Origin: an uncultured Candidatus Thioglobus sp.
Lineage (GTDB): Bacteria > Pseudomonadota > Gammaproteobacteria > PS1 > Pseudothioglobaceae
DNA: 64,000 nt
Assembly: GCA_964577715.1 (NCBI GenBank)
Contig: CAZOAA010000001.1
Span: forward strand, 13,396 to 77,395
Reading direction: 5' to 3'
Below are positions 8,673 to 60,295 of the stretch, one piece after another; the stretch's first letter is position 1, and each line of letters starts with the position of its first letter. The translations under genes were made by a program, and so were the position numbers. The notes under the pieces are model-generated. The model was not told where the DNA came from and did no database searches. It was given only the letters and a program-made list of their open reading frames with translations.

Positions 8673-9638
8673 ATGGAAGCAAATAAAAGCTATTCCGACA
8701 GAAGTTCCGGATAGGATGTTGAGTCTGGAGTACGGAGTAATTCAGAAATATATGAATTTGACTTTTCAAATGAATCGTCTACCTCAGAAGAAATTAGTGT
8801 CAGTTGGCATTTAGATTCTTACTCAGGAATCCTTGAACATAATGAATTAAAAAGTCTTTCTGACAAAGATAAAGAGTTCGTAAAAGGTATTCAGTTATTA
8901 GAATTTGTCACTAAACAAACAATTTTTGAGATTGATTGTGTTAATTATGTAACTTCTAGACTAACGCATGGGAAATATAAATTTAATTTTTCTGAGTCTT
9001 TAAAGCTTGACGCTTTAAAAGTTTATACCGATGAAGGATATCATGCTTATTACACACAGAAAGTGGCCAATCAGATAAGGCATTATTACCATATTGGTGA
9101 GGACGATATTAGCCCATTTGTTAAAGACTATTATTCAAAGATCGAATTAATTATTTCCAAGTTTGATAAAAAATACAAAGATCTTTGTATGCTGGCATTT
9201 GTTATTGCTGGCGAGAATCAAATTGTCTCAGATCTTTCGAATGATATGCGAAAGATAGTCCATGAGCCTATTCGAAAGATGTTTAGAGATCATATGAAAG
9301 ATGAAGTATTTCATGCTAGATTCTTTAGTATAGTTTTTGAAAAAATTTGGCCTCAACTAAATGCTAAAGAGAAAGAAATTATGGGGTTGTGCTTTTGTGA
9401 CTCTATGGAAATATTAGGATCACCTCGTACTGATATCTATTATTTTTCTTTGGCCAAGCTGGGTTTTAACGAACAACAAATATCGCAATATATCAACGAT
9501 ATATATAATACAATTGAGTGGAAAACAACTAGAATTAGCGCTAGAATGGCTCCAACAATAAGCTTATTAAAATCAAATAATGTTTTTGATATTGAATCAG
9601 TTAAAAATGCGTTTCAGAGAAAAAATTATATAATATAA
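8673..9638 (+). pseudogene. Ferritin-like di-iron oxygenase (AurF-like fold) interrupted by an in-frame TAG at codon 14
   Basis: ATG at 8673 and the 9063..9638 ORF are in the same frame. The only stop between them is TAG at 8712..8714. The 116 codons between the TAG and the GTG at 9063 contain no ATG/GTG/TTG. Two ExxH motifs (DEGYHAYY at about 9030, DEVFHARFF) plus upstream and mid-protein Glu residues fit an E...ExxH...E...ExxH four-helix-bundle di-iron site. Confidence 0.5.
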
Positions 9639-9644
9639 GTAGCA

Positions 9645-9730
9645 ATGTCAAAATATTTAAAAGCAAATAGTGATTATTGGAGTCAGGCGGTTTATGATAA
9701 TCCAAACCCTGAGTCATATGTATTTAGAAT
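9645..9730 (+). pseudogene. 5' fragment (28 codons + 2 nt) of an IS-disrupted class I SAM-methyltransferase
   Basis: ATG 9645: MSKYLKANSDYWSQAVYDNPNPESYVFR, then the IS left end. The frame continues perfectly at 10475. Confidence 0.75.
9723..9730. repeat. Target-site duplication, left copy (TTTAGAAT)
   Basis: The identical 8-mer directly abuts the other IS end at 10467..10474. Confidence 0.85.
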
Positions 9731-9752
9731 GGGTCAAGATAACTTTAGAGGT
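9731..9752. repeat. IS terminal inverted repeat at the left window-side end (contains the transposase stop codon)
   Basis: See the mobile_element entry. 21/22 match to the reverse complement of 10445..10466. Confidence 0.85.
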
Positions 9753-10420
9753 TCATCTCTAAATATTTTAAGCAAATTTTGATACATATCTTCACCTCTA
9801 TTATTAAACCTAAATTCACATTCTTTTAGGTGTAAATTAAACATCTTTTTATCCATACCTTTAAACTTTACTAACCTTGTTTTGGCATAACCCCAGAATG
9901 ATTCAATTCCATTAATATGAGAGTTTCCTCTCACAAACTCATTCTTCCCATGGTGCACTCTAAAGTGCTTCTTATAGCCAAAATCTACTAAACCATTATA
10001 CCCACGCCAACCATCGGAATGAATAACACTACCAACATCAACTTTGCCCTTGATAACCTTCTGCAGCACAGCTGCAGAGCAATCAGGGACAATTTCAGTA
10101 TAAACCTTACCTTGTCTTTTTAACAAACCAAACACTATGGTTTTACCTCTGGCGCCACGGCCGCGTTTTCCGCGGACGCGCCGTGCACCAAAATAACTTT
10201 CATCAATTTCAATCTCACCTTTGAGTGGTGACTGATCTTGACAATACAAAAATATTCTAGACCTAATAGCTGTTAAATATTTGTTAATACTTGGTCTAGA
10301 TATTTTTGTTAAATGAGAGATTTGAGTTGCACTCAAATCCTCAGAAAACAAGTAAATTATTTCTCTAAATTTCTTCTCAGAAATGTGAGAACGAATTACA
10401 TACTTGTTTTTCATTGGCAT
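9734..10420 (-). CDS. IS1595-family (ISXO2-like) DDE transposase
   Basis: 228 aa. N-terminal HTH-like LSATQISHLTKISRPSINKYL, GRG-rich RVRGKRGRGARGK linker, HSDGWRGY and NGIESFWGYAKTRL motifs typical of IS1595 DDE transposases. Confidence 0.85.
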   Translation of the reverse strand: MPMKNKYVIRSHISEKKFREIIYLFSEDLSATQISHLTKISRPSINKYLTAIRSRIFLYCQDQSPLKGEIEIDESYFGARRVRGKRGRGARGKTIVFGLLKRQGKVYTEIVPDCSAAVLQKVIKGKVDVGSVIHSDGWRGYNGLVDFGYKKHFRVHHGKNEFVRGNSHINGIESFWGYAKTRLVKFKGMDKKMFNLHLKECEFRFNNRGEDMYQNLLKIFRDEPLKLS

Positions 10421-15603: not shown

Positions 15604-17244
15604 ATGGAAAAATGTAATATCTTTATTTTTAGAGGCAAATGCACATTTTTTTTGAAAATATATAGCCGTATATCTAAAAATAAGATCTATTCATGGAATA
15701 AATGCAGATCTATAAAAAAAATACCTTATAGTCACTCCTGTTCTTTCTTCTCTAATAAGGAAAAGGCAAGGCGTATTTTTAATAATTATTTTGAAAATAA
15801 TATGCCTAATAAGGAGTGCCTATCTACTCAGTATATTAAAAAAATGCTGATTAGTGATTTTGATGAATATTATTCATTTACAGCGCAAGTACTGCAAATG
15901 AATAAGAAAATATATAAGATAATTGGCGCTGGAATATTTAAAAATATTTATGATAATAGAAAGATAAAAACAAGCTATTTTTTAATATTTGGATATACTG
16001 TTGCCATAGTTAAGATGTCCCTTGTCTTTTTGAGACTTTACCTCTTGTGTTATATGCAAAAAAGCAGTATTAAGGTTGGAGATGTTGTGTATTTAAGAAG
16101 AAAAGCTCTTCCAGATGCTTTTTTAAATTCTCATAAATTTTTTATAAAAAACAAAGTTTCATTTTCAGGTGTAATTTTTGATTTCAGCAACTCTATATCT
16201 AAATACGATCTTTATTTTTTAAGTAGTTTTGTAAATTCTTTTGCGGCATTGAAAAAAGCAGCAAGAATAGTTGTTAGATCTATTTTAAAAGATACAACTA
16301 CTTTTTATGCTTTATCAGTCTCTACCAGACAGTATTATAATTTTTTAAGGGAAACACTTTATGTTAATACTTTGTTAGAATTAAAGCCAAAGGTTATATA
16401 TGGATCTTTGACAGACCGACCTTACGGTGTTCTTTTGTATAAACATAAAAAACCTTTTCAAAAAATATGCATGCATAGTGATGGGTTTTATTTTGATCCG
16501 TTACCGGGCCCAGAATATGTGTATGCGGATGTATTTTATGGAATGAATGAGTTGGACTGTAATAATATAAACCGCCATGGCGGCGGTATTTTAAAAATAA
16601 TAGATGCAGGGTTTTATCGAAAAACTATTAGGGCTAAGTCTAAAGGGGTGCATAAAGATTTAAAAAGGTTGATTTTTGAATTTGAGCATATTGTGGTTAT
16701 TACCTTGGCAACGGTTAGAGTTAACAAGTATTTTCCAATTGATTTGGCATACTTTAAAGATTTTATTCTTGAAATAATAGAGCAAACAAGTGTTTTTGAT
16801 AAATCCCTCTTTATTCTAAAAGGAAAAAAGGGTGAGATAGAGTTGATTCCAGATGAATATGCTAAATTTTTATCACAAAAGGAAAATGTATACATAGTCC
16901 CATGTGATGTGCCATATTTGCTCGAGTACAATCATTATGAGGATCTTATTGATTATGCAGATTTAGTTGTATCTATGCACTATGCTTCTATGACAGTGTG
17001 GCAGTCAATAGCAAGTGAAATACCTACTATAGGATATAACTATTGTAATGATATAACTGAATTTTCAAACTCTCCATATTTTATTGTTAATAAGGGTGGG
17101 TTACTACAAGCAATTAAATATTGGAAGGGTTTGGATGAATGCACAAAAAAACATTTTTTCCAAAATATTAAAGGAAAGGCAAACTTACATCGCAAAGATG
17201 CGTTACACGATATGTATTCAAGCCTCTCTTCTATGGTTGGCTGA
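15604..17244 (+). CDS. Hypothetical protein; orphan TagF/KpsC-like transferase candidate
   Basis: 546 aa with no strong motif. C-terminal YADLVVSMHYASMTVWQSIASEIPTIGY resembles the terminal GT-B motif shared with the ORFs at 2, 27238 and 43086. Confidence 0.3.
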   Translation: MEKCNIFIFRGKCTFFLKIYSRISKNKIYSWNKCRSIKKIPYSHSCSFFSNKEKARRIFNNYFENNMPNKECLSTQYIKKMLISDFDEYYSFTAQVLQMNKKIYKIIGAGIFKNIYDNRKIKTSYFLIFGYTVAIVKMSLVFLRLYLLCYMQKSSIKVGDVVYLRRKALPDAFLNSHKFFIKNKVSFSGVIFDFSNSISKYDLYFLSSFVNSFAALKKAARIVVRSILKDTTTFYALSVSTRQYYNFLRETLYVNTLLELKPKVIYGSLTDRPYGVLLYKHKKPFQKICMHSDGFYFDPLPGPEYVYADVFYGMNELDCNNINRHGGGILKIIDAGFYRKTIRAKSKGVHKDLKRLIFEFEHIVVITLATVRVNKYFPIDLAYFKDFILEIIEQTSVFDKSLFILKGKKGEIELIPDEYAKFLSQKENVYIVPCDVPYLLEYNHYEDLIDYADLVVSMHYASMTVWQSIASEIPTIGYNYCNDITEFSNSPYFIVNKGGLLQAIKYWKGLDECTKKHFFQNIKGKANLHRKDALHDMYSSLSSMVG

Positions 17245-18146
17245 TGCGAGTGAATATTTTTTATAGAAAAATGGTAAATGTATTGTATTCTTTCAAAGAC
17301 TCGTTTTTTCTTTATAAAATTATATTGAAGTCTTTTTTTGGAGGGGGGGGGAGTAAGATAATTGTTACATCCATTCCAAAGTCTGGCACGCATTTAATTG
17401 AAAAGTTATTGGTTGATTTTTTTAGTTTTATTAAATTTGGTGATGGTATTAATAGAATGCATTATCCAAATAATGAGGGAAGGTTTAATAAAGTAAGAAA
17501 GAAAATCTCCCTCCTTCCTCGATCATGTTTTATTTCAAGTCATTTATTTTATGATGCTGAAATTGGCGAATTGATGGCCAAAAAAGATATAAAAATAATT
17601 TTAATGATTCGAGATCCGAGAGATATTGTTGCTTCAGCTGCAAGATACATCACTGAAAGTTCACATCCTTATTCTCCTCATTTTACAAATAAGTCGAAAG
17701 AAGAAGTTATAGAGATGATTATAACTGGAATTACAGGTCCAATATTAATGCACAGACCTAAAGATCCAAGTATGAGAGCTGAATATACTACGAACCATAA
17801 CATGTTTAGTGGTATTTTAGAAGCATACCGAAGGTTTTTACTGTGGAGTGAAGTTGGTGATGCTTTAGTAGTAAAATTTGAAGATCTTGTCGGGACTTCT
17901 GGAGGTGGTGACATAGGAAGGCAGCGAAAAATAATTTACAAAATAGCTAAATTGTGCAAGAGTCATGTGTCTGATAGTGATATGAGTAATATTATTGACA
18001 ATCTGTTCGGAGGAACGTCAACCTTTAGAAGGGGTAGAATCAACACCTGGAGTGATGAATTTACAGAAAAAAATAAAAAAACTTTTAAAATCAATACTGG
18101 AAGTTTACTTGTTGATTTGGGTTATGAAAAAGACAATAGATGGTGA
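17244..18146 (+). CDS. PAPS-dependent sulfotransferase
   Basis: 5'-PSB loop SIPKSGTHL and 3'-PB motif MIRDPRDIVAS. TGATG junction with the upstream ORF. Confidence 0.8.
   Translation: MRVNIFYRKMVNVLYSFKDSFFLYKIILKSFFGGGGSKIIVTSIPKSGTHLIEKLLVDFFSFIKFGDGINRMHYPNNEGRFNKVRKKISLLPRSCFISSHLFYDAEIGELMAKKDIKIILMIRDPRDIVASAARYITESSHPYSPHFTNKSKEEVIEMIITGITGPILMHRPKDPSMRAEYTTNHNMFSGILEAYRRFLLWSEVGDALVVKFEDLVGTSGGGDIGRQRKIIYKIAKLCKSHVSDSDMSNIIDNLFGGTSTFRRGRINTWSDEFTEKNKKTFKINTGSLLVDLGYEKDNRW
17343..17351 (+). repeat. Poly-G tract (G9) inside the sulfotransferase CDS
   Basis: gga ggg ggg ggg agt encodes GGGGS, lying between the start codon and the PAPS-binding loop. It is the longest G/C homopolymer I found in the window. 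Confidence 0.9.
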
Positions 18147-18156
18147 TCGGTAAAGA

Positions 18157-18659
18157 ATGAACATTAACAATATAGATTTATTTGTATTTGATTTTGACGG
18201 TGTGTTGACCAATAACCTTGTTTATACAAATGAGTTGGGAGAGGAATTTGTTGTTTGTAGTCGTAGTGATGGCTTGGGATTTGATTTGTTAAAGGCAATA
18301 AAAAAAGAGTCTTGTATATTGTCAACCGAAAAAAACCATGCTGTTTCAGCGAGAGCAAAAAACTTAATATCCCTGTAATTCAAGGGGCTGGGGATAAGGT
18401 TGATGTATTGAAAAATATTGCAAAAGAGCGAAATATTAGCCTTGACGGTATTTTTTATGTTGGCAATGATGTTAATGATTATTATGCTATGGATATTTGC
18501 GGTTATACAGCTTGCCCATCTGATAGTCATAGTTTAATTAAAAACAATGTGGACTACATACTTAAAGCTAAAGGTGGGCATGGAATTGTTCGTGAAATAT
18601 TAGAAGATGTTTTTCAATTAAATATACTTAAATTACTTAAAAAACTAAAAGATGAATAA
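18157..18659 (+). pseudogene. KdsC-family HAD phosphatase paralogue, frameshifted at an A6 run (18357..18362)
   Basis: ORF 18157..18378 (DFDGVLT ... STEKNHAVSARAKN) and ORF 18312..18659 (KKLNIPVIQG ... GNDVNDY ...) are the N- and C-terminal halves of one protein. Together they are colinear with the intact paralogue at 19499..20017. Adding one A to the A6 run restores ...ARAKKLNIPVIQG... Confidence 0.8.
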
Positions 18660-19491
18660 ACCAATATTTATTATTGCAGAGATTGGAATAAATCACAATG
18701 GAGATATGCAGATATGTAAAGACTTGATTGATGTTGCTATTGATGCTGGTTGTAATGCAGTAAAGTTTCAAAAAAGAGACGTTAATCAAGTTTATACACA
18801 AGAGTTCTTAGATTCGTCTAGAGAGAGTCCATGGGGTACTACACAAAGGGAGCAAAAGAGCGGACTGGAGTTTGGAGTTGATGAATATCGAGAAATTGAT
18901 CAATATTGTAAAGAAAAAGATATAGAGTGGTTTGCTTCGGCATGGGATTTAAACAGCCAAGTATTCTTGCAGCAGTTTGATTGTAAGTACAATAAAATTG
19001 CCTCAGCCATGATTGTCTGCGAAGACCTTTTAAGGCTGGTTGCCAAAGAAGGAAGGCACACCTTTATATCAACAGGGATGACAACCTATGATGACATTAG
19101 CAAAGCTGTTGACATTTTTAACGAGGAAGGTTGTTCGTTTGAGCTGATGCATACAGTATCTACCTACCCAATGAAAGATGAAAATGCAAATCTAAAAATG
19201 ATCGATACTCTCAAGCGGAAGTACCAATGCAATGTTGGTTATAGTGGACATGAAGTTGGCTTGGCAGTTTCATATGCCGCCGCTGCTTTAGGAATTTCCT
19301 CGCTAGAAAGGCATATTACCATGGACAGATCTATGTACGGTTCTGACCAGTCTGCTTCGGTAGAATCGGCAGGATTGAGAACTTTGGTGGGAGCGGTAAG
19401 AAAAATAGAAAAAGCAATGGGCGACGGTATTAAAAAAACTATAGAGGAAGAAGGGCCAGTGGCACAGAATTTAAGACAACATTTGAGTTAA
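18652..19491 (+). CDS. NeuB-family ulosonic acid (phosphate) synthase, short form without C-terminal SAF domain
   Basis: IIAEIGINHNGDMQICKDLIDVAIDAGCNAVKFQ, GYSGHE and LERHIT motifs. Only 279 aa, whereas typical NeuB is about 340-350 aa. Confidence 0.8.
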   Translation: MNKPIFIIAEIGINHNGDMQICKDLIDVAIDAGCNAVKFQKRDVNQVYTQEFLDSSRESPWGTTQREQKSGLEFGVDEYREIDQYCKEKDIEWFASAWDLNSQVFLQQFDCKYNKIASAMIVCEDLLRLVAKEGRHTFISTGMTTYDDISKAVDIFNEEGCSFELMHTVSTYPMKDENANLKMIDTLKRKYQCNVGYSGHEVGLAVSYAAAALGISSLERHITMDRSMYGSDQSASVESAGLRTLVGAVRKIEKAMGDGIKKTIEEEGPVAQNLRQHLS

Positions 19492-19498
19492 ATAATAA

Positions 19499-20017
19499 AT
19501 GGATAGATTTATATCTATAGACTGCATAGATGTCTTGGTTTTTGACTTTGACGGTGTATTGACTGATAATTCAGTCTATATTGATGAAAGCGGTAGAGAG
19601 CAGGTTAAATGCAGTAGATCGGATGGGTTGGCTTTCGATGTTTTGCGAAAGATTAACAAACCTGTTTGTATTATCTCTACTGAAAAGAATTCCGTTGTCT
19701 CTTCTAGAGCTGCAAAATTACGCATACCAGTAATTCAAGGTGTATCTGATAAAGCAAGAGAATTAGAGAAACTTGCAAATGAGCACTCTTATCAATTGTC
19801 AAAAATACTATTTGTGGGTAATGATTTAAATGATTATCCGGCGATGAACTTATGTGGTTTTACAGCGTGTCCGGGCGACAGTCATCAGGTAATTCAAGAG
19901 TTGTCCACTTTTGTACTTCGAACAGAGGGTGGCAAAGGGGTTGTTAGAGAGTTGATAGAAGAAATCTTCCAGTTAGATCCATTGAAGATATTATTTGAGA
20001 TTGAGAATAAGAGGTAA
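19499..20017 (+). CDS. KdsC-family HAD-IIIA ulosonate-phosphate phosphatase
   Basis: VFDFDGVLTDN (DxDGV), STEKN, GNDLNDY. 172 aa. Confidence 0.8.
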   Translation: MDRFISIDCIDVLVFDFDGVLTDNSVYIDESGREQVKCSRSDGLAFDVLRKINKPVCIISTEKNSVVSSRAAKLRIPVIQGVSDKARELEKLANEHSYQLSKILFVGNDLNDYPAMNLCGFTACPGDSHQVIQELSTFVLRTEGGKGVVRELIEEIFQLDPLKILFEIENKR

Positions 20018-20019
20018 TA

Positions 20020-20856
20020 ATGAAAAATGATTTTGGCGTAATGCAAGGAAGGCTGTTGCCTAAATACCAAGGAAGGTATCAAGCCCATCCGTTAGGGTAC
20101 TGGCAAGAAGAATTTCTTGTGGCATCAGAGTTGGGATTGGATTGTATTGAGTTTATATTGGATTTTAATGATGCCGAGAAAAACCCTTTGTTAGCGAAAG
20201 ATGGAGACTTAAAGATTGCAAATGTGGTCAATAAAACAGGTGTATCTGTTAAAACCATTTGTGCAGACTACTTTATGGAGGTGCCACTGCATACTGATGA
20301 TCAGTTAGTGGCTGATACAAGCTACAAGGTCTTAGAAACACTGGTTGATTCGGCTTCGAAGTTGGGTGTAACAGATATTGTAATACCTTGTGTTGATCAA
20401 TCTTCGTTGAACAGTGAGATTAAAGTCGAACGTTTTATTGGCCAAATAAAGCCCATAATACCAACTCTTAAGAGTAAGAATATTAACCTATCTTTAGAGA
20501 CAGATTTAGCACCAGATGCATTTTCTGCGTTATTAAGAGCAATCGGTTCAGAGAAAGTTACTGTTAATTATGATATCGGTAATAGTGCTGCATTAGGATT
20601 TAACCCAGTCGAGGAGTTGGAGGCCTATGGTGATAGAATTACCGACATACATATTAAGGATAGAGTACTGGGAGGGGGTCCGGTAACATTAGGCGAAGGC
20701 GATGCGGATTTTCAATGTTTTTTCCAAAAGCTAAAAGAGTTTGATTATAGAGGGCCCTTTATTATGCAGGCTTATCGAGATGATGAAGGTGTTGAGATCT
20801 TCAAAAAACAGCAACAGTGGATTTTAGAAATGATGCATAATTTTTATGAGGATTAG
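20020..20856 (+). CDS. Xylose-isomerase-like TIM-barrel sugar(-phosphate) isomerase/epimerase family protein
   Basis: 278 aa. Spaced acidic/His motifs (IEFILDF, LSLETD, NYDIGNS, HIKD) fit the AP_endonuc_2 fold. Confidence 0.55.
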   Translation: MKNDFGVMQGRLLPKYQGRYQAHPLGYWQEEFLVASELGLDCIEFILDFNDAEKNPLLAKDGDLKIANVVNKTGVSVKTICADYFMEVPLHTDDQLVADTSYKVLETLVDSASKLGVTDIVIPCVDQSSLNSEIKVERFIGQIKPIIPTLKSKNINLSLETDLAPDAFSALLRAIGSEKVTVNYDIGNSAALGFNPVEELEAYGDRITDIHIKDRVLGGGPVTLGEGDADFQCFFQKLKEFDYRGPFIMQAYRDDEGVEIFKKQQQWILEMMHNFYED

Positions 20857-21538
20857 TTGCATTATTCTCGCCCGAGGTGGATCAAAGGGTATACCTAAAA
20901 AAAATATTATCGATTTTTGCGGGAAACCGCTAATTGCTTGGACCATTCTACAAGCCTGTAAAGCTGAAGGGGTGAGTGATATCTGGGTAAGCTCTGACAG
21001 TGAAGAGATCTTGGAGGTTGCTGAACAGTATGGCGCTAATACTATTGCTCGACCTGAAGAAATATCAGGAGATTTAGATTCTTCTGAGTCAGCTTGGTTG
21101 CACGCAGTTGATTTTATTGAGCAAAGGTCAAACCATCCAATTGATTATATTCTAGCGCCACAAGCAACTTCCCCATTGCGACACCCTGAAGATTTTTCTG
21201 GCGCTATTAGACAGGTTATACAAGAGAGGTCAGATTCGTTGTTATCTGTATCCGAGATTGAAGATTTTTTTATTTGGAAAAAGGGACGTGAACATATAGA
21301 GTCGGTCAACTATGATTATAAAAATAGAAAGCCTCGACAACAGATTGAAGAAACGTATTTAGAAAATGGCTCTTTCTACTTATTTAAGCCTCAATTATTG
21401 CGCAATGAAAACAACCGATTGGGTGGTGATATTTCATTGTTTAAGATGGATAGATATAAAATGTTTCAGATAGACAATGTTGATGATATTAAACTTTCTT
21501 CGGTAATTATGAAAGGTTTTGGCCTAAATAACTTATGA
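20846..21538 (+). CDS. Acylneuraminate (NeuA-type) cytidylyltransferase
   Basis: IILARGGSKGIPKKN N-terminal motif, 230 aa. Confidence 0.8.
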   Translation: MRISCIILARGGSKGIPKKNIIDFCGKPLIAWTILQACKAEGVSDIWVSSDSEEILEVAEQYGANTIARPEEISGDLDSSESAWLHAVDFIEQRSNHPIDYILAPQATSPLRHPEDFSGAIRQVIQERSDSLLSVSEIEDFFIWKKGREHIESVNYDYKNRKPRQQIEETYLENGSFYLFKPQLLRNENNRLGGDISLFKMDRYKMFQIDNVDDIKLSSVIMKGFGLNNL

Positions 21539-22284
21539 CTGACTATCTTGAGAATCTTTTTTCTCTTAAAGGCAAGACAGCCATTGTAACTGGTGGCTCA
21601 AGAGGTATTGGTGCCGAGATCGCGCTAGCTTATGCTAACTGCGGAGCTAATGTGGTTTGTATTGCTAGATCAGAGTTGGCAGACGATGAGCGACTCCAAT
21701 CGCTTTATCGTCAGTGTGATATCTCCGATGAGAGACAGTTCCAAGAGCTCTGTGAATCAGTAAAATCTAACTATGGCGGCATTGATATTTTAGTAAATGC
21801 CGCTGGTATTAGCCTTTCCGAGGTTGATTCGAAAGATGAATTAGAGCGTTTTACAAAAACTCTTGAGGTTAATTTAATTGCAACCTACCAGTGCTGCAAT
21901 ACCGCCTCTAAATTTATGAAAAATGGAGGTTCAATTATTAACATTACCAGTATTGGTGCTATGCAAGGTTTTCCAAATAACCCGAGTTATGTGGCAAGTA
22001 AAGGCGGCGTTAAAATGTTGACCAAAGCGTTAGCAGTAGACCTAGGAGCTAAGGGTATTCGAGTCAATAATATTGCGCCCGGATATATTAAAACTGACAT
22101 GACAGCCAAGAGCTTTGCAAATCCGGTTGCAAATAAAGAACGAGTAGATCGAATGATCATTCCACGATGGGGCGAAACCATAGATTTGGTTGGAGCTGCG
22201 ATTTTTCTAGCATCGAAAGCCTCTTCTTATACAACAGGGTCAAGTCTAGTGATTGATGGTGGCTGGACCGCCAAAGGTATGTAA
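21535..22284 (+). CDS. Short-chain dehydrogenase/reductase (classical SDR)
   Basis: TGGSRGIGAEIA, NAAG, SYVASKGG (YxxxK). Confidence 0.85.
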   Translation: MTDYLENLFSLKGKTAIVTGGSRGIGAEIALAYANCGANVVCIARSELADDERLQSLYRQCDISDERQFQELCESVKSNYGGIDILVNAAGISLSEVDSKDELERFTKTLEVNLIATYQCCNTASKFMKNGGSIINITSIGAMQGFPNNPSYVASKGGVKMLTKALAVDLGAKGIRVNNIAPGYIKTDMTAKSFANPVANKERVDRMIIPRWGETIDLVGAAIFLASKASSYTTGSSLVIDGGWTAKGM

Positions 22285-22286
22285 AC

Positions 22287-23057
22287 ATGGATCTGCATTT
22301 GCTAAACAAGAGAGTGGTGATTACAGGGTCTTCTGGCGGTATCGGTAAAGCTATTGCAAAAGGATTTCTGGAAGAGGGTGCTAGTGTGATAATAGTGGCA
22401 AGAGACCAAGATAAGTTAAGCAAGACTGCAGCAGAGTTAAGTAAGGCCTATGGTGACGATAAGGTCTTTTTTGCCATCTGTGACTGTTCAAAGGAAGAGA
22501 GCGTGCAACAGTTGAGAGGCTTTGTTAGGAAAACTTGGAATGGTGTAGACATTGTTGTGGCTAATGTTGGCAGTGGTAGAAGCGTTCCAGACGCCATACC
22601 CTCAACCGCACAATGGAGCAGAGTATGGAGTAGTAATTTTGACTCCGCATTACATACTGCGCGTATTTTTACCCCTATGCTAGAAGAATCCAGAGGTAGT
22701 CTGTTGTTTATTTCCTCTATCGCTGGACTAGAGGCATTTGGCGCGCCTGTGGACTATTCAACTGCTAAAGCAGCCATTATCGCTTTTGCTAAGAATATGT
22801 CAAGAAAACTAGCGCATATTCGGGTTAATGTTGTTGCCCCGGGAAATGTTTACTTTGAGGGCGGCTCCTGGGATGAAAAAATTAAGCAAGACAAAGATCG
22901 TGTTGATAGTCTGATTCGCTCAACTGTCCCTGTGAATCGTTTTGCTTCACCAGAGGAGATTTCGGATGCGGTGGTTTTTTTATGCTCTGATAGAGCAAAT
23001 TTTATAACCGGCGCAACTCTAGTAGTTGACGGCGGCCAGACCGTAGGAGTTTATTAA
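22287..23057 (+). CDS. Short-chain dehydrogenase/reductase (classical SDR)
   Basis: TGSSGGIGKAIA, YSTAKAA (YxxxK). Confidence 0.85.
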   Translation: MDLHLLNKRVVITGSSGGIGKAIAKGFLEEGASVIIVARDQDKLSKTAAELSKAYGDDKVFFAICDCSKEESVQQLRGFVRKTWNGVDIVVANVGSGRSVPDAIPSTAQWSRVWSSNFDSALHTARIFTPMLEESRGSLLFISSIAGLEAFGAPVDYSTAKAAIIAFAKNMSRKLAHIRVNVVAPGNVYFEGGSWDEKIKQDKDRVDSLIRSTVPVNRFASPEEISDAVVFLCSDRANFITGATLVVDGGQTVGVY

Positions 23058-23885
23058 ATGTCAGATAATTTATTTCGATTAGATGGAAAGGTGGTGGTTA
23101 TTACTGGAGCTGCCGGCTTACTGGGAAGGCAGCATGCACAAGCAGTGGCGAGTCATGGCGGCACACCTATTTTGTTGGACTTGTCTCAACGCGATGTGGA
23201 CAGTATTGCAACTGAATTAAATGTTAAGTATGGCGTAAACGCATTAGGCTTCTCTGTCGACATTACGAACGAAGAGCAAGTCAAGGAAAATGCAGATTAT
23301 CTATTTAGTTTTTTCGGCAAAATCGATGGACTGGTTAATAATGCTGCCAACAACCCCAAAGTTGAAGACAGTGATGAGGTAAATTTCTCTAGATTGGAGC
23401 ACTTTCCTTTAGATGTTTGGCAGGATGACATAATGGTAGGGCTAACAGGTTCGTTTTTATGTGCAAAGCACTATGGAGCAAAAATAGCGCAAAGCCAAAG
23501 TGGCGGAACGATTGTTAATATTGCCTCAGATCTTGGGCTAATTGCGCCTGATCAGCGCCTTTATAGGCAGGAGGGTGTTGCCGATGATTTGCAAAATGTT
23601 AAGCCTGTCACTTATTCAGTTGTTAAGTCCGGCTTAGTTGGTTTAACGAGATATCTAGCAACATATTGGCCGGACAAGAATGTAAGATGTAACGCCATGT
23701 GTCCAGGCGGGGTAGAAAACGGCCAACCGGAAGACTTTCTGCAGGCTGTACATGCAAGAATACCCATGGGTAGAATGGCACAGCCTAATGAATATCAGAC
23801 TACGCTTTTATGGATGCTGAGCGATGCATCTGGCTACTTGAACGGGGCTGTTATTCCAGTAGATGGTGGCAGAACAACCTGGTAG
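23058..23885 (+). CDS. Short-chain dehydrogenase/reductase (classical SDR)
   Basis: TGAAGLLGRQHA, NNAA, YSVVKSG (YxxxK). Confidence 0.8.
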   Translation: MSDNLFRLDGKVVVITGAAGLLGRQHAQAVASHGGTPILLDLSQRDVDSIATELNVKYGVNALGFSVDITNEEQVKENADYLFSFFGKIDGLVNNAANNPKVEDSDEVNFSRLEHFPLDVWQDDIMVGLTGSFLCAKHYGAKIAQSQSGGTIVNIASDLGLIAPDQRLYRQEGVADDLQNVKPVTYSVVKSGLVGLTRYLATYWPDKNVRCNAMCPGGVENGQPEDFLQAVHARIPMGRMAQPNEYQTTLLWMLSDASGYLNGAVIPVDGGRTTW

Positions 23886-23957
23886 TATTGATAAGCAAAG
23901 AGAATTAGGGGTAAAGAATATGAAAAAAGTTAAGCCGATGCAGGCAAAAACGATGCA

Positions 23958-24200
23958 ATGGCCAGAAGATATGGTGATAACTATAGAATGCTACATGACA
24001 AGACACACGTATCTTTATTTTCTGATTTTGGTTTGAGTGATTTACTAGAGGATGAGGGATTTTTAGTAAAAAATATTAAATATCCATACTTTTATACTAA
24101 GTATTTTAATTCTAAAGAGATAGCAAAACTATTTAAAATGGTAAAACTTCTCCTGCATTTTATGGGAATATTTTTACAATTTACGCCTTAAAAAAATAAA
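23958..24200 (+). pseudogene. Probable 3' remnant of a class I methyltransferase gene (N-terminal SAM domain missing, frameshifted tail)
   Basis: The 77-aa ORF reads DKTHVSLFSDFGLSDLLEDEGFLVKNIKYPYFYTKYFN, typical of a methyltransferase C-terminal segment. A different frame at 24140..24200 reads GKTSPAFYGNIFTIYALKK-stop, which also looks like genuine protein. No SAM-binding motif lies upstream. Confidence 0.4.
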
Positions 24201-24204
24201 TTTT

Positions 24205-25275
24205 ATGAAAAGTTACACTACAGATGGAAAGGTTGTTCACCTCTCGAAAACAGAACAAATAAATGATAAATTGTCTAGAATTTTAGGCAGTAAATTTGTT
24301 GAATATAGGGACGAGTGGGATAGGGCTAACAGATTGGAGTTAGTTACTGAGTTTCCATTATTTTTACAATTAGATATGAATCAAGAGTGTAATTTTGAGT
24401 GTCCTCATTGTATTGTGGGGGATATGAGTGTAGCTAAAAAGTACTACAGTGGAGCTCCATTAAGCTGGGAAAAATATAAAATTATTGTTGATGAGGGTAG
24501 AGAGCATGGCTGTCCATCTATTTCTTTACAAGGAAATAATGAGCCTTTAATGATAAAAGACTTGGAAAAATATATTGAATATGCGCATAATAATGGTTTT
24601 ATGGATATTATGATAAATTCAAATGCTTCACCATTAACTGAAAAAAGAGCTAAATCCATATTAGATAGTGGATTGACAAGAATTAGATTTAGTTTGGATG
24701 CTGCGGATAAGTCTACATTTGAAAAAATTAGATTAGGTGGAAGATATGATCAAGTCATTAGAAATATTGATAGATTTTTGGAGATTAAAGAAAAGGGCGG
24801 GTACAATCTGCCAGTAACTGGCGTTAGTTTTTGCCATCAAAAAGACAATGAAAATCAAGTAGAGTCTTTTATTAAACAGTGGCAAGATAAGGTTGATATG
24901 GTAACAATACAGAAATATATGCCACCTGCTCCAGAGCCAGGATATGACAAGTTTTACCCATCTGCTCAAAAGGATAATGACCAGATTGTAAGTAAGGGTT
25001 TTAAGTGTCCACAACCATTTCAAAGGGTTACCATTAGAAATTCAGAGATAACTCCGTGTTGTGCAGCAATTAGTAGTCAGTTAAAGATAGGGGAAGTTGG
25101 GAAAACAACTATATATGAAGCTTGGAATTCAAAAGGAATGCAGAAGTTGAGAAAATTACATATTGAGGGTAGGTGGTACGATAACCCAGTTTGTAAGGTT
25201 TGTATAGAAATGTCAGACCCTAAGGCAAAATTTTACACCTCTAAAGCAATCGAGTTAGATATGGATTTGTCTTGA
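24205..25275 (+). CDS. Radical SAM enzyme with C-terminal SPASM/twitch-like Cys cluster
   Basis: CNFECPHC (CxxxCxxC) at about residue 62. C-terminal CPQPF ... TPCCA ... CKVC cysteines. Confidence 0.8.
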   Translation: MKSYTTDGKVVHLSKTEQINDKLSRILGSKFVEYRDEWDRANRLELVTEFPLFLQLDMNQECNFECPHCIVGDMSVAKKYYSGAPLSWEKYKIIVDEGREHGCPSISLQGNNEPLMIKDLEKYIEYAHNNGFMDIMINSNASPLTEKRAKSILDSGLTRIRFSLDAADKSTFEKIRLGGRYDQVIRNIDRFLEIKEKGGYNLPVTGVSFCHQKDNENQVESFIKQWQDKVDMVTIQKYMPPAPEPGYDKFYPSAQKDNDQIVSKGFKCPQPFQRVTIRNSEITPCCAAISSQLKIGEVGKTTIYEAWNSKGMQKLRKLHIEGRWYDNPVCKVCIEMSDPKAKFYTSKAIELDMDLS

Positions 25276-26249
25276 TAAATATAGTAATTGTAGGTTGTGG
25301 AGAGTTTGGAAGTAGACATTTACAAGCATTGTCTTATTTACAAGAATCATCAAATGTGTTTTTAGTTGATAGATCTGAACAATCTTTAACTGTTGCAATA
25401 GATAGATTTAATAGTGTTTATAATAAAAAATTACAATCATTAGTCAAGGTTGTTGGTGTTAAAAGTATAGATGAGATACAAGAAAATATTGACTTGGTTA
25501 TTGTTGCTACAAGTTCTAAAGATAGATTGTTAACTTTGTCTAATGTGTTGAGTGTTATTTCTCCAAAATATATTATTCTAGAAAAGTTTTTATTTCAAGA
25601 GTCGCAAGACTTTGTTGATGCTAAGTTGTTGATTGACGCGTCATCAACAGAGGTTTTTGTTAATCAATGGCTAAGTTCTAATTATTTGTTTTCTAGAATT
25701 AGAAGTTGGCTTGGAGAATTCAATAAATTAAAAATGACAGTTAGTGGTGGAAATTGGGGAATTTCATGCAACTCAATACATTTTGTGGATTATTTTGAAA
25801 CTCTTATTGGTAAGAGTATTGATACGGCAAGTGGAATGTTAAATAGAGTTTATGCAGCAAAAAGAGAGGGATTTTATGAGTTTAATGGATCCATTGTATT
25901 AAACAGTGGTACTAATTTCAATCTTGAGTTGATTTCGGAGGATACTCATGAGGTTGATGTGAATATTCTTATTGAAACCGAAGATAAAACAGTTAGTGCC
26001 AGCATAAAACCTAATCAACAGGTTTTTGTCAATTTTAAAGATTTTCAGCAAGATGTTGATGAAATTGGAAGTATTCCATTTCAAAGTAAAATTACTAATG
26101 TATTGGTGGAAGAGTTAATGATATTTGGATACTCAAGATTGCCAACATATGAAAAAGCATCAAGACAGCATATGTTATTATTGCCAATTTTTAATAAATA
26201 TATTAGAGAAAATTCTAGCTGGAACGGACAAGGCTGCCCCATTACATAA
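25272..26249 (+). CDS. Gfo/Idh/MocA-like NAD(P)-binding oxidoreductase (divergent)
   Basis: N-terminal IVIVGCGEFGSRHLQAL Rossmann motif, ILEKF in place of the EKP motif, 325 aa. Confidence 0.55.
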   Translation: MINIVIVGCGEFGSRHLQALSYLQESSNVFLVDRSEQSLTVAIDRFNSVYNKKLQSLVKVVGVKSIDEIQENIDLVIVATSSKDRLLTLSNVLSVISPKYIILEKFLFQESQDFVDAKLLIDASSTEVFVNQWLSSNYLFSRIRSWLGEFNKLKMTVSGGNWGISCNSIHFVDYFETLIGKSIDTASGMLNRVYAAKREGFYEFNGSIVLNSGTNFNLELISEDTHEVDVNILIETEDKTVSASIKPNQQVFVNFKDFQQDVDEIGSIPFQSKITNVLVEELMIFGYSRLPTYEKASRQHMLLLPIFNKYIRENSSWNGQGCPIT

Positions 26250-26270
26250 AATACAATTAAAAGATTAAAT

Positions 26271-27236
26271 ATGAAATTAGCATTGATAGGATGTGGAAAT
26301 ATTGCAGAATTACACGTTCCGGCTTTTAAGGCGGCAGGGTTTGATGTTTGTTGCGTTGCGGGCTCATTAAATTCTATAAATGTTGATGATTTTGCAAAGC
26401 GACACCAGATAGATAAAGTGTATAAAGATCCAGATGATTTGGTACATTCAAACCTATGGGATGCTATCTTAATTGTATCATCAATCGACTCTATACTTGG
26501 ATATATAAAAAAATCCAGTGTCTATAATAAGCCAATTTTAGTAGAAAAGCCTGTTTCGTTAAACTATAAAGAATTGGATAGCGTATTAGATTTTGATAAT
26601 GTTTATGTTGCCTACAATAGAAGATTCTATAGCACAACTAGTTATGCAAATGATTTTTTAAAAAATCATAAAAAGTCTTTAATAAAAATTACTATTCCAG
26701 AATCTAGTATGGGTGAGCTAGGGTTTAACAGTTTTCCGAATCTACTGCCATCAAGGGTTTACGAAAATTCTGTCCATGTAATTGACTTGGTTAATTACAT
26801 CGCTGGAAAGATTGAGTGGACGCATGTCGATCATTTATTAGATAAAGAAAAATATTTATCTGTATCTGCTCTTGGAATAAGCAAAGAAGGGCACAATATT
26901 ATTTTAAATGTGTGTTTTGACGCCCCTGATAATTTTTCTATAGATATTACAAATGGAAATGAGCGCATTGAAATGCGTCCGATTGAGATTGCTTATCATT
27001 ATAAAGGAATGAGAGTTGAGGAGCCAAGTGACGATATTCCGATTAGAAGATATTTGCCTTTGGTAAAAAATACTGTTATTAATTCTAGCTCACGGGAAGA
27101 ATTAAAACCCGGGTTTTATGAGCAAGCTAATGATTTTATGGATATATGCAAGGGTGAAAAAATAACAAATAGTGCAACATTAATAGATGCTAAAAATGCT
27201 CTTGAGGTAGTTCATAGGCTGCGAAATAATATCTAG
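26271..27236 (+). CDS. Gfo/Idh/MocA-family oxidoreductase
   Basis: LALIGCGNIAELHVPAF and ILVEKPVSL motifs. Confidence 0.7.
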   Translation: MKLALIGCGNIAELHVPAFKAAGFDVCCVAGSLNSINVDDFAKRHQIDKVYKDPDDLVHSNLWDAILIVSSIDSILGYIKKSSVYNKPILVEKPVSLNYKELDSVLDFDNVYVAYNRRFYSTTSYANDFLKNHKKSLIKITIPESSMGELGFNSFPNLLPSRVYENSVHVIDLVNYIAGKIEWTHVDHLLDKEKYLSVSALGISKEGHNIILNVCFDAPDNFSIDITNGNERIEMRPIEIAYHYKGMRVEEPSDDIPIRRYLPLVKNTVINSSSREELKPGFYEQANDFMDICKGEKITNSATLIDAKNALEVVHRLRNNI

Positions 27237-27237
27237 C

Positions 27238-32438: not shown

Positions 32439-33154
32439 TGAAACTTGAAGACTATCTTTATTCGTGGGAGAATAAGCCTGCACTCCGTAAAATATATAAT
32501 AATCTTTATCAAAAAATTTTATCAAAATCTACCGATGGCAAAACTTTAGAGATTGGTGCTGGTATCGGAAACTTTTATGCTAGTAGTGAAAAAGTTTATA
32601 AGATAGACATACAACTTTCTAAAGGTGTAGATGTTGTAGCTGATGCACACAAGCTGCCGTTTTTGGATGGGAGTTTCCCCAACATTGTATTGTTTGATAC
32701 TCTTCATCACCTTCAATGCCCTATGTTATTTTTTTTAGAAGCAGAACGTGTACTTGCTCCGGGGGGGCGTATTATTATGGTTGAACCAGGAATAACCCCT
32801 ATAAGTTGGTTGTTGTATAAATTAGGCCATGAAGAGCCTGTGAATATGAAGTGGAAGCCGAAGAAAAAGTGTGTATTAGATCCTAATAAAGATCCTTATG
32901 AATCTAATCAAGCAATACCTACAATTTTATTTAAAGTTAAACCTGTTTCTTTTGAGAAGTTTATTCCAGGGTTGTTAATTAAAGAATCTAAATGGCTAAG
33001 TATTTTTGCTTATCCAATGTCTGGTGGTTTTAAGAAATGGTGCCTTGTTCCATATAAATGGGTAGATAAAATACTAGCAGTAGAGGAAAAGGTGCTACCT
33101 TTTTTGGGACCAATTATGGCATTTAGGTTACTAATTGTATTAGAGAAAAAGTAG
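32438..33154 (+). CDS. Class I SAM-dependent methyltransferase
   Basis: LEIGAGIGN, FDTLHHL, LAPGGRIIMVEP. Confidence 0.78.
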   Translation: MKLEDYLYSWENKPALRKIYNNLYQKILSKSTDGKTLEIGAGIGNFYASSEKVYKIDIQLSKGVDVVADAHKLPFLDGSFPNIVLFDTLHHLQCPMLFFLEAERVLAPGGRIIMVEPGITPISWLLYKLGHEEPVNMKWKPKKKCVLDPNKDPYESNQAIPTILFKVKPVSFEKFIPGLLIKESKWLSIFAYPMSGGFKKWCLVPYKWVDKILAVEEKVLPFLGPIMAFRLLIVLEKK

Positions 33155-37899: not shown

Positions 37900-37902
37900 G
37901 TA

Positions 37903-40199: not shown

Positions 40200-40208
40200 T
40201 TTATTAAA

Positions 40209-51494: not shown

Positions 51495-51496
51495 AA

Positions 51497-54611: not shown

Positions 54612-54613
54612 AA

Positions 54614-56306: not shown

Positions 56307-56312
56307 AAAAGC

Positions 56313-59240: not shown

Positions 59241-59242
59241 TT

Positions 59243-60292: not shown

Positions 60293-60295
60293 ATT

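What the first reader, a model, noticed from the sequence alone, without database searches (positions are those of the whole stretch)
17244..18146. G9 homopolymer inside a glycan sulfotransferase: candidate phase-variation switch
Seen:
- Nine consecutive G at 17343..17351 (gga ggg ggg ggg agt) lie between the start codon and the PAPS-binding loop IPKSGTH.
- No in-frame Met lies downstream before that loop, so a +/-1 slip would truncate the enzyme.
- In this AT-rich sequence, with G at roughly 0.15-0.2, a G9 is very unlikely by chance.
- The gene is currently in the ON frame.

Established: poly-G/C tracts of 8 or more in surface-glycan genes are classic contingency loci, for example in Campylobacter, Haemophilus and Neisseria.

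Inference:
- Sulfation of the glycan may be stochastically switched.
- A PAPS-dependent sulfotransferase in a bacterial glycan cluster is noteworthy in itself, and no cysNDC/PAPS genes are in the window.
Basis: partly seen in the sequence, partly recalled or inferred. Interest (0 to 1): 0.65.

Follow-up and report, generated by a model that had tools for sequence, protein, structure and literature searches.

The report
Poly-G tract in glycan sulfotransferase gene
A run of nine G's really does sit near the start of an intact sulfotransferase gene in a large surface-sugar gene cluster and would switch the enzyme off if it slipped by one base, but nothing available shows that it actually varies, so it remains an ordinary, untested candidate for a known kind of genetic on/off switch.

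Summary
G9 lies at 17343..17351, in frame, in a 300-aa Sulfotransfer_1 ORF (17244..18146), 8 codons before the PAPS-binding loop IPKSGTH. It is the only G/C run of 8 or more in the window.

Both G8 and G10 meet a stop within 1-3 codons. The tract encodes three of the four glycines of a GGGGS loop. That loop joins an N-terminal helix to the first strand of a sulfotransferase fold with all motifs intact.

- A synonymous-codon shuffle gives a G9 or longer in 7% of windows, roughly one per Mb.
- G7 runs and GGG-GGG codon pairs are generally over-represented here.
- The window holds no other tract of 8 or more.
- The only orthologue with DNA (51% identity) reads GGA TCA GGA.
- No relative above 52% identity exists among 5.8 billion proteins, so tract lengths cannot be compared.

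Two assemblies agree on G9.

Verdict: a candidate slipped-strand ON/OFF switch, a new member of a known kind, at about 0.4. An incidental Gly-linker tract is about equally likely. Sulfotransferases in bacterial glycan clusters are already known. Interest is modest.

The parts
17343..17351 (+). G9 homopolymer. It forms codons 34-36 (GGG GGG GGG), preceded by GGA, and encodes G33-G36 of the loop GGGGS.
   Evidence: Read directly. It is the only G/C run of 8 or more in the window. An independent Logan contig of SRR8146441 has the identical sequence.
17244..18146 (+). Sulfotransferase ORF, 300 aa, currently in frame (ON).
   Evidence: Pfam PF00685 at E 1e-11. AF2 model with pLDDT 78.8 and pTM 0.79. 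Best Foldseek hits are SULT7A1, SULT1C1 and SULT1E1 with PAP. Every column that is invariant or at least 90% conserved across the 19 aligned sequences is retained.
17244..17342 (+). Codes for the N-terminal extension (residues 1-33), with a predicted helix at 18-32. This is probably a membrane-association segment. The start ATG overlaps the TGA of the upstream ORF.
   Evidence: The 51-52% orthologues P0002 and P0003 carry an ungapped extension of the same length. In L002 the ORF starts at a GTG 3 nt after the upstream stop.
17373..17393 (+). 5'-phosphosulfate binding loop IPKSGTH (residues 44-50). It lies 21 nt downstream of the tract.
   Evidence: I44 P45 K46 G48 T49 H50 nearly invariant; aligned with PKSGTH of SULT7A1.
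17354..17361 (+). Stop codons in the two alternative frames. TAA 17354..17356 is read after G10 or G7. TAA 17359..17361 is read after G8 or G11.
   Evidence: In-silico variants give G10 -> ...GGGGE* and G8 -> ...GGGGVR*.
17338..17340 (+). TTG that comes into frame with the catalytic domain only in the G10 state. It would give a hypothetical 269-aa product, MEGGGSKIIV..., without the N-terminal helix.
   Evidence: No Shine-Dalgarno motif lies upstream, and whether initiation occurs here is pure inference.
15604..17244 (+). Upstream 546-aa ORF of unknown function, translationally coupled to the sulfotransferase and syntenic with it in the orthologous locus L002.
   Evidence: local alignment of its C-terminus with the ORF preceding the sulfotransferase in L002.
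18157..21538 (+). Downstream ulosonic/nonulosonic-acid module that travels with the sulfotransferase. It comprises a frameshifted KdsC-like HAD phosphatase (18157..18659), NeuB (18652..19491), a KDN-9-P-phosphatase-like HAD (19499..20017), a TIM-barrel epimerase-like gene (20020..20856) and a cytidylyltransferase (20846..21538).
   Evidence: family assignments. The same order, ST-HAD-NeuB-AP_endonuc_2, occurs in L002, and ST-HAD-NeuB-CTP_transf_3 occurs on the P0004 contig.

Best explanation
The G9 tract is a real, in-frame homopolymer. It encodes a flexible GGGGS loop between an N-terminal helix, which is probably a membrane anchor, and the first beta-strand and PAPS-binding loop of a Sulfotransfer_1-fold enzyme. 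That enzyme belongs to a NeuB/HAD/cytidylyltransferase module of a surface-glycan cluster longer than 64 kb.

A run of nine G is intrinsically prone to slipped-strand mispairing. Any +/-1 change runs into a TAA within 1-3 codons, upstream of every catalytic motif. The tract therefore acts as a reversible ON/OFF (G9 = ON) frameshift switch for one non-essential glycan decoration, presumably O-sulfation of the ulosonic-acid-containing glycan. Each population would then hold sulfated and unsulfated cells.

- **Shown:** the tract, the reading frame, the in-silico consequences of a slip, the fold and motifs, and the gene context.
- **Inferred:** that the tract mutates fast in this organism, that OFF variants exist, that the switch is maintained by selection, and that the substrate is the glycan.
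For: - **Tract and frame:** read directly.
- **Uniqueness:** it is the only G/C run of 8 or more in the window.
- **Codon usage:** it is built from three consecutive GGG codons, although GGG makes up only 16% of Gly codons.
- **Rarity per window:** the expectation is 0.02-0.07.
- G8 and G10 both terminate within 1-3 codons, and no in-frame start lies before the PSB loop.
- **Tolerant position:** the tract sits at 11% of the gene, in a loop between helix 18-32 and strand 38-43.
- **Lineage-specific gain:** the orthologue has GGA TCA GGA.
- **The enzyme looks functional:** all family-invariant residues are present, and the fold matches PAP-bound SULTs.
- **The gene is a decorating enzyme in a surface-glycan cluster**, which holds Wzx, Wzy, an ABC transporter and many glycosyltransferases. 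This is the gene class that dominates phase-variable genes in Campylobacter, where tracts settle at G9-G10 (PMC8355987).
- **Two assemblies agree on G9**.
Against: - No length polymorphism was observed, and none could be looked for. There are no close relatives and no truncated variants in the databases.
- No other tract of 8 or more lies in 64 kb of glycan genes, and there are no other simple-sequence repeats of note.
- G7 runs number 5, against 1.2 expected (P = 0.005). GGG-GGG codon pairs number 8, against about 2 expected. Both are generally enriched, so G9 may simply be the tail of a compositional habit.
- The codon-shuffle null gives about one G9 per Mb.
- The orthologue lacks the tract.
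- The mismatch-repair status and the taxonomy of the organism are unknown. The only hints point to marine Gammaproteobacteria.
Confidence: 0.4

Rival explanations
1. The tract is incidental. The linker happens to be Gly4-Ser, and this genome tends to repeat GGG after GGG. The G9 is then the tail of an ordinary distribution of G runs at Gly-Gly sites. It is mutable as any G9 is, but it is not maintained as a switch. OFF mutants are simply deleterious or neutral losses.
For: - The synonymous-codon shuffle yields a G run of 9 or more in 6.9% of windows, about one per Mb.
- The run-length series is 7, 5, 1, 1 for runs of at least 6, 7, 8 and 9. P(G|G^n) rises to 0.4-0.5.
- GGG-GGG pairs number 8 of 88, against about 2 expected. 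The four G7 runs lie at conserved Gly-Gly sites of core enzymes.
- The tract falls in a predicted loop. Two of the four Gly positions are also Gly in the orthologues (LGSG).
- No second long tract and no other simple-sequence repeat occurs in the cluster.
Against: - Three GGG codons in a row is still unusual. It is roughly 0.4% under independent codon choice, and about 10% using the window's own codon-pair frequencies.
- From general knowledge, not tested here: long G/C runs inside genes under selection are normally purged by synonymous interruption. Persistence of an uninterrupted G9 in an otherwise intact gene is therefore mildly unexpected.
Confidence: 0.4
2. The locus is under relaxed selection or beginning to decay. 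The sulfotransferase module is eroding, and the G9 is a mutational hazard that will inactivate the gene once and irreversibly, not a reversible switch.
For: - The gene immediately downstream, a KdsC-like HAD at 18157..18659, is already split by a -1 frameshift in an A6 run. An intact paralogue lies 0.8 kb further on.
- An IS1595 transposase sits in the cluster.
- The sulfotransferase is the fastest-diverging gene of the module. It is 51% identical to L002, against 80% for NeuB and 64% for the TIM-barrel gene.
- One orthologue (P0004) is called only as a C-terminal fragment inside its contig.
Against: - The sulfotransferase ORF is intact and keeps every conserved residue.
- The frameshifted HAD has a functional duplicate, so its loss says little about the sulfotransferase.
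Confidence: 0.12
3. The tract length is a sequencing or assembly artefact. The true or majority length is not G9, or the consensus hides a mixture.
For: - The sequence comes from a metagenomic sample, and homopolymers are error-prone.
- A frameshift at an A6 run lies 1 kb away.
- The NCBI-derived window and the Logan contigs of the same run differ by one SNP in 16 kb. This shows some micro-heterogeneity or separate assembly.
Against: - The Logan assembly of SRR8146441 gives the same G9 and the same A6.
- G9 is the length that keeps a 300-aa ORF with all motifs open.
- 11.8 kb shared with four other samples shows 38 substitutions and no indels, so homopolymer length errors are not rife.
Confidence: 0.05
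4. The G-rich stretch GGAGGGGGGGGGAG is an internal ribosome-binding site, or a slippery site for programmed frameshifting or transcriptional slippage. It would then produce a short, anchor-less isoform.
For: - GGAGG is a Shine-Dalgarno core.
- Several distant homologues start 1-2 residues after this point, for example MRIVANSIPKSGTH.
- In the G10 state, TTG 17338 is in frame with the catalytic domain.
Against: - No ATG, GTG or TTG follows the tract in frame before the PSB loop in the G9 state.
- Shine-Dalgarno motifs precede only 11 of 59 ORFs here, against an 11% background.
- There is no RNA structure around the site: z-score 0.09.
- The extension is open, of equal length and translationally coupled in two lineages.
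Confidence: 0.03

Closest known systems
Intragenic poly-G/C contingency loci of Campylobacter jejuni capsule, LOS and flagellar-glycosylation genes (e.g. the MeOPN transferases cj1421c/cj1422c and the methyltransferase cj1426c)
   Same: - A G9 lies within the 5' part of the ORF of an enzyme that adds a non-essential, non-sugar decoration to a surface glycan.
- A +/-1 slip gives immediate termination.
- The genome is AT-rich.
- C. jejuni tracts settle at G9-G10 (PMC8355987).
   Different: - No tract-length variation has been observed here.
- Only one tract occurs in 64 kb, whereas C. jejuni clusters hold several and the genome holds 12-31.
- The organism is an uncultured, probably marine gammaproteobacterium of unknown mismatch-repair status.
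- The enzyme is a sulfotransferase. No phase-variable example turned up in the literature search.
PAPS-dependent polysaccharide sulfotransferases in capsule gene clusters of marine bacteria (Cobetia marina KMM 1449, Vibrio sp. KMM 8419)
   Same: The sulfotransferase gene is embedded in a large CPS/O-antigen-type cluster, together with an ABC transporter, a rhamnose-type pathway and many glycosyltransferases (PMC11766843; PMC11641403).
   Different: - Those clusters carry cysN/C, cysD, cysQ and a sulfate permease. None is in this window.
- No homopolymer switch is reported there.
- Sequence relatedness to those enzymes was not tested.
Cytosolic-type sulfotransferases (Pfam PF00685; SULT7A1 5x2b, SULT1C1 3bfx, SULT1E1 1aqu)
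   Same: - The fold matches, with Foldseek probability 1.00 and TM about 0.55-0.6.
- The 5'-PSB loop PKSGTH, the 3'-PB RDPRD..S motif, the conserved His100 and the C-terminal FRxGxxxxW motif are all present.
   Different: - Identity is only 13-18%.
- It carries an extra N-terminal helix plus a Gly loop.
- The genomic context is bacterial glycan biosynthesis, and the acceptor is unknown.

Membership tests
Simple-sequence-repeat contingency locus (phase-variable gene) | A hypermutable repeat at or above the length at which switching is seen (poly-G/C of about 8 or more) | tested here: met
   An uninterrupted G9 lies at 17343..17351. C. jejuni tracts are mainly G9-G10 (PMC8355987).
Simple-sequence-repeat contingency locus (phase-variable gene) | The repeat is placed so that a change of one unit alters expression (in the 5' ORF or the promoter) | tested here: met
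   The tract covers codons 34-36 of 300. G8 gives ...GGGGVR* and G10 gives ...GGGGE*. There is no in-frame restart before the PSB loop.
Simple-sequence-repeat contingency locus (phase-variable gene) | Tract length polymorphic within populations or between close strains | not testable with these tools
   - No relative above 52% identity and no truncated variant is found.
- The sulfotransferase and NeuB genes are seen only in SRR8146441.
- Related strains in SRR31802804-08 share only 50296..62116.
Simple-sequence-repeat contingency locus (phase-variable gene) | Repeat over-represented relative to composition | tested here: inconclusive
   The expectation is 0.02-0.06 per window. The codon shuffle gives P = 0.069, and runs of G7 or more are generally in excess at P = 0.005.
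Simple-sequence-repeat contingency locus (phase-variable gene) | Part of a set of several such loci in the genome (a phasome) | tested here: not met
   Within the 64-kb window there is no other G/C run of 8 or more and no other candidate repeat. The rest of the genome was not available.
Simple-sequence-repeat contingency locus (phase-variable gene) | Tract conserved as a repeat, at variable length, in orthologues of related lineages | tested here: not met
   The only orthologue with DNA (L002, 51% aa identity) has GGA TCA GGA. The comparison is distant, so the evidence is weak.
PAPS-dependent sulfotransferase (Sulfotransfer_1, PF00685) | Profile match above the curated threshold | tested here: met
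   45 bits against a cut-off of 22, E 1.1e-11.
PAPS-dependent sulfotransferase (Sulfotransfer_1, PF00685) | The 5'-PSB loop (PKxGT), the 3'-PB motif (RxPxD..S) and the catalytic His | tested here: met
   P45 K46 S47 G48 T49, R123-D127 with S131, and H100 are all conserved across the 19 aligned sequences. They align with SULT7A1.
PAPS-dependent sulfotransferase (Sulfotransfer_1, PF00685) | Sulfotransferase fold | tested here: met
   The AF2 model has pLDDT 78.8. The top 50 Foldseek PDB hits are all sulfotransferase-fold entries (nearly all sulfotransferases; also retinol dehydratase) at probability 1.00.
PAPS-dependent sulfotransferase (Sulfotransfer_1, PF00685) | Sulfotransfer activity on a defined acceptor, and a PAPS supply in the cell | not testable with these tools
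   There are no PAPS-synthesis genes in the window. The rest of the genome is unavailable and there is no biochemistry.

The most novel reading that the evidence does not exclude
Slipped-strand phase variation of glycan sulfation in an uncultured, probably marine gammaproteobacterium, which would be an example outside the classic host-adapted pathogens.
- The G9 would toggle a membrane-anchored sulfotransferase that decorates a nonulosonic-acid-type surface glycan, for example as bet-hedging against phages or grazers.
- The switch might have three states: G9 gives the anchored enzyme, G10 gives an anchor-less enzyme from TTG 17338, and G8 gives a null.
- Premature termination might also have polar effects on the downstream NeuB module.
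Probability: 0.25. Interest if true: 0.55.

Novelty: new member of a known kind. Interest (0 to 1): 0.35.

Why it matters
- **If the tract really switches:** it would be an example of simple-sequence-repeat phase variation controlling sulfation of a bacterial surface glycan. I found no such example in the literature searched. It would also extend contingency loci to an environmental, uncultured lineage, where phage pressure rather than host immunity is the likely driver.
- **If it does not switch:** this is just a Gly-linker encoded by an unlucky run of GGG codons.
- **Either way:** the mechanism class is well known, and the test, read pile-ups over one 30-bp site, is simple.

Tried and rejected
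1. **Tract length in relatives.**
   - The search of 5.8 billion proteins found nothing above 52% identity and no truncated copies.
   - The 90% clusters of the sulfotransferase, NeuB, HAD, RmlC, DegT and the ABC transporter hold no other member.
   - The genome-contig scan found nothing.
   - The metagenome scan gave one C-terminal fragment only (L003).
   - DNA for orthologues P0002 and P0004 is not retrievable.
2. **Same organism in other samples.** Contigs from SRR31802804/06/07/08 are 99.7-99.98% identical but cover only 50296..62116. Exact look-ups of NeuB and AsnB returned only SRR8146441. A repeated look-up to extend past the window's end returned nothing new.
3. **Taxonomy.**
   - There are no tRNA genes and no housekeeping genes in the window.
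   - The AsnB scan gave only 35% hits.
   - The named hits for DegT (74-76%) and the IS1595 transposase (76-79%) point to Methylococcales and Ca. Thioglobus, which is only a hint.
   - A literature search for the run accession found nothing.
4. **Internal RBS or alternative start.** Rejected. There is no in-frame start after the tract, and Shine-Dalgarno usage is weak.
5. **RNA structure at the site.** None was found (z-score 0.09).
6. **Promoters and terminators around the gene.** Nothing exceeded the shuffled controls.
7. **NCBIfam.** It has no model for this protein.
Full report
**1. The observation**

The sequence at 17340..17354 reads GGA GGG GGG GGG AGT, so nine consecutive G occupy 17343..17351. 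This is the only G or C run of 8 or more in the 64-kb window. The next longest are four G7 runs and one C6 run.

The tract lies in frame in ORF 17244..18146 (+, 300 aa). The ATG of that ORF shares its A with the TGA of the upstream 546-aa ORF. The + strand is 19.6% G, and overall GC is 33.1%.

An independently built Logan contig from run SRR8146441 (L001, 11.8 kb) is 100% identical to window 15713..27534, G9 included. Every factual element of the finding is confirmed.

**2. What the gene is**

- **Family.** The protein matches Pfam Sulfotransfer_1 at E 1.1e-11, 45 bits against a cut-off of 22. NCBIfam has no model for it.
- **Conserved residues.** In an alignment of it with 18 homologues it keeps every column that is invariant or at least 90% conserved. 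These include the 5'-phosphosulfate loop I44-P-K-S-G-T-H50, H100, the 3'-phosphate motif R123-D-P-R-D127 with S131, and the C-terminal T260-F-R-x-G264...W269.
- **Solved structures.** The best sequence match is mouse SULT7A1 (5x2b), aligned over the PSB loop and the RNPKD motif.
- **Predicted structure.** An AlphaFold2 model has mean pLDDT 78.8 and pTM 0.79. It places a helix at residues 18-32, a loop at 33-37 (GGGGS), and strand 38-43 leading into the PSB loop.
- **Fold search.** Foldseek against the PDB returns PAP-bound cytosolic sulfotransferases at probability 1.00 and TM about 0.55-0.6.

The tract therefore encodes a linker loop between an N-terminal helix and the catalytic domain.

The N-terminal extension is translated rather than being a mis-called start, for three reasons:
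- The two 51-52% orthologues, P0002 and P0003, carry an ungapped extension of equal length.
- In L002 the orthologous ORF starts at a GTG 3 nt after the stop of the same upstream gene.
- Many more distant homologues have hydrophobic N-termini, as does a second sulfotransferase just upstream of the window.

**3. Context**

The whole window is one plus-strand glycan cluster. It holds:
- an ABC transporter;
- an NDP-sugar pathway (nucleotidyltransferase, 4,6-dehydratase, 3,5-epimerase, C-methyltransferase, DegT aminotransferase, N-formyltransferase);
- WbuX with HisH/HisF-like genes;
- many GT2 and GT4 glycosyltransferases and several methyltransferases;
- Wzx and Wzy_C;
- two AsnB-like genes.

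The sulfotransferase sits at the head of a module of KdsC-like HAD, NeuB, KDN-9-P-phosphatase-like HAD, a TIM-barrel gene and a cytidylyltransferase. The same neighbourhood recurs at the two orthologous loci whose gene content could be read clearly:
- L002 has the upstream ORF, then ST, HAD, NeuB and AP_endonuc_2.
- The P0004 contig has ST, HAD, NeuB and CTP_transf_3.

The likely acceptor is thus a glycan containing an ulosonic or nonulosonic acid. This is inference.

**4. Consequences of slippage (in silico)**

- G8 gives MR...FFGGGGVR*.
- G10 gives MR...FFGGGGE*.
- G7 and G11 behave in the same way.

The stops are TAA 17354..17356 and TAA 17359..17361. In the catalytic frame the first start downstream is TTG 17408, beyond the PSB loop. 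A G8 cell could therefore make no active enzyme.

In the G10 state a TTG at 17338 comes into frame with the whole catalytic domain (269 aa). Whether it initiates is unknown. There is no Shine-Dalgarno motif in front of it, and such motifs precede only 11 of 59 ORFs here. No RNA structure surrounds the site (z-score 0.09). No promoter or terminator signal stands out.

**5. Is it more than chance?**

- **Composition models.** They expect 0.02 (iid) to 0.06 (first-order Markov) runs of G9 or more per window.
- **Stricter null.** I shuffled synonymous codons among identical amino acids across all ORFs. This produced a run of 9 or more in 6.9% of 3000 trials, an expected 0.07 per 62 kb or about one per Mb. 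A G9 is unusual for a window but not for a genome.
- **The window's own habit.** It has five runs of G7 or more, against 1.2 expected (P = 0.005). It has eight GGG-GGG codon pairs, where about two are expected. The four G7 runs sit at conserved Gly-Gly dipeptides of core enzymes. The run-length series 7, 5, 1, 1 (for at least 6, 7, 8 and 9) is compatible with G9 being the tail of this habit.
- **On the other side.** GGG makes up only 16% of Gly codons, and the other Gly4 in the window is encoded GGG GGA GGC GGA.

The statistics neither establish nor exclude selection for the tract.

**6. Comparative evidence**

- **Relatives.** The nearest relatives among 5.8 billion proteins are 52% identical. 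Nothing resembling a truncated G8 or G10 product was found. The 90% clusters of the sulfotransferase and its neighbours contain only this genome.
- **Orthologue DNA.** The single orthologue with DNA has TTA GGA TCA GGA GAA AAG (L-G-S-G-E-K), so no homopolymer. The tract is a lineage-specific feature. That fits a recently evolved contingency locus and an accident equally well.
- **Collection scans.** They added one C-terminal fragment only.
- **Related strains.** They do exist. Contigs from SRR31802804/06/07/08 are 99.7-99.98% identical to 50296..62116, with 38 substitutions and no indels. They cover only that end of the cluster. Exact look-ups of the sulfotransferase, NeuB and AsnB returned only the original sample.

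The decisive comparison, tract length among close strains or reads, cannot be made with these tools.

**7. Organism**

This is unresolved. There are no tRNA genes or housekeeping genes in the window. The named relatives of DegT (74-76%) are Methylococcus and Methylomonas. The named relatives of the IS1595 transposase (76-79%) are Candidatus Thioglobus and a Methylococcales sponge symbiont. The one metagenome hit is marine. A marine gammaproteobacterium is the best guess. Its mismatch-repair status is unknown.

**8. Interpretation**

The mechanism is read off the anatomy. The tract is an uninterrupted G9, a length at which C. jejuni tracts switch at 1e-4 to 1.6e-3 per division in the absence of mismatch repair (PMC8355987). 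It lies upstream of all catalytic residues of a dispensable decorating enzyme, and stops follow immediately in both other frames. That is exactly the layout of an intragenic contingency locus.

I rate this reading at about 0.4 and the incidental Gly-linker reading at about the same. Smaller weights go to three others:
- incipient decay of the module, since the adjacent HAD gene is already frameshifted at an A6 run;
- an assembly artefact, which is countered by two concordant assemblies and by the intact ORF;
- an internal-RBS or recoding role.

**9. Comparison with known systems**

The closest analogues in function are the phase-variable capsule-decorating transferases of C. jejuni, the MeOPN transferases and the O-methyltransferase (PMC8355987).

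Of six defining features of a contingency locus:
- two are met (repeat length, and position with a consequence);
- one is inconclusive (over-representation);
- two are not met in the data at hand (other such loci nearby, and a repeat in the orthologue);
- the key one, observed polymorphism, is untestable.

It should therefore be filed as a candidate, not as a member.

As a sulfotransferase it meets the profile, motif and fold criteria. Sulfotransferases in bacterial capsule clusters are already described for Cobetia and Vibrio, there together with PAPS genes (PMC11766843; PMC11641403). A full-text search for sulfotransferase together with phase-variable and homopolymeric returned no paper. A phase-variable sulfotransferase would thus be a new example of a known mechanism.

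**10. Verdict**

Novelty is a new member of a known kind. Interest is 0.35. One read pile-up over a 30-bp site would settle it.

Noticed in passing
window 18157..18659 (frameshift at A6, 18357..18362): The KdsC-like HAD phosphatase gene directly downstream of the sulfotransferase is split into 73-aa and 115-aa ORFs by a -1 frameshift in an A6 run. Adding one A restores a 167-aa protein. The Logan contig shows the same state. An intact paralogue (53% identity) lies at 19499..20017, whereas the orthologous locus L002 has a single intact copy.
   Followed up: partly
window 4020..4026, 29205..29211, 32761..32767, 42884..42890: Four G7 runs lie at conserved Gly-Gly dipeptides of core enzymes (a dehydratase Rossmann motif, a GT4, a methyltransferase and an unknown protein). 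Runs of G7 or more number 5, against 1.2 expected under a synonymous-codon shuffle (P = 0.005). GGG-GGG codon pairs are about four times over-represented.
   Followed up: partly
L008 235..1089 (1-2 kb upstream of window position 1): A second Sulfotransfer_1 gene (284 aa) and a LicD-family gene lie just outside the window in the same cluster. This sulfotransferase also has a hydrophobic N-terminal helix, followed by SGRDK and the PSB loop. It carries a T9 run at its codons 4-6.
   Followed up: partly
window 9063..10420: An IS1595-family (ISXO2-like) transposase gene on the minus strand (9734..10420) interrupts the otherwise all-plus-strand cluster. It sits next to a short AurF-like di-iron oxygenase ORF (191 aa, matching only profile positions 147-248 of 282). 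It overlaps the 5' end of the ORF called at 10404. Its nearest named relatives are in Ca. Thioglobus and a Methylococcales sponge symbiont.
   Followed up: partly
window 50296..62116: Contigs from four other runs (SRR31802804/06/07/08) are 99.7-99.98% identical to this stretch only. All of them end at 62116, inside the AsnB-GT4 fusion gene. Their SNPs are clustered (50464..50571, 52166..52394, 53055..53874), which suggests recombination patches and a mosaic cluster whose middle part is strain-specific.
   Followed up: partly
window 36907..40961: A second sugar-acid-type module is present: a D-2-hydroxyacid dehydrogenase, an NAD epimerase/dehydratase, a HAD_2 phosphatase, an HpcH/HpaI aldolase and a second CTP_transf_3 cytidylyltransferase, followed by a Wzx-like flippase. 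The cluster may therefore make two different CMP-activated acids.
   Followed up: no
window 61353..64000 and 63720..63740: A long ORF fuses an AsnB-like amidotransferase to a GT4 glycosyltransferase (more than 882 aa, running off the window). It contains a perfect hexanucleotide repeat, AACCCT x3.5, that encodes NPNPNPN. This repeat is in frame, so it is not a frameshift switch.
   Followed up: no
contig of P0004 (JGI sample 3300072015; no DNA available): One sulfotransferase orthologue is called only as a 182-aa C-terminal fragment that starts 115 nt inside its contig. It is preceded by a 33-aa ORF in another frame. It may be a disrupted orthologue or an assembly error.
   Followed up: no
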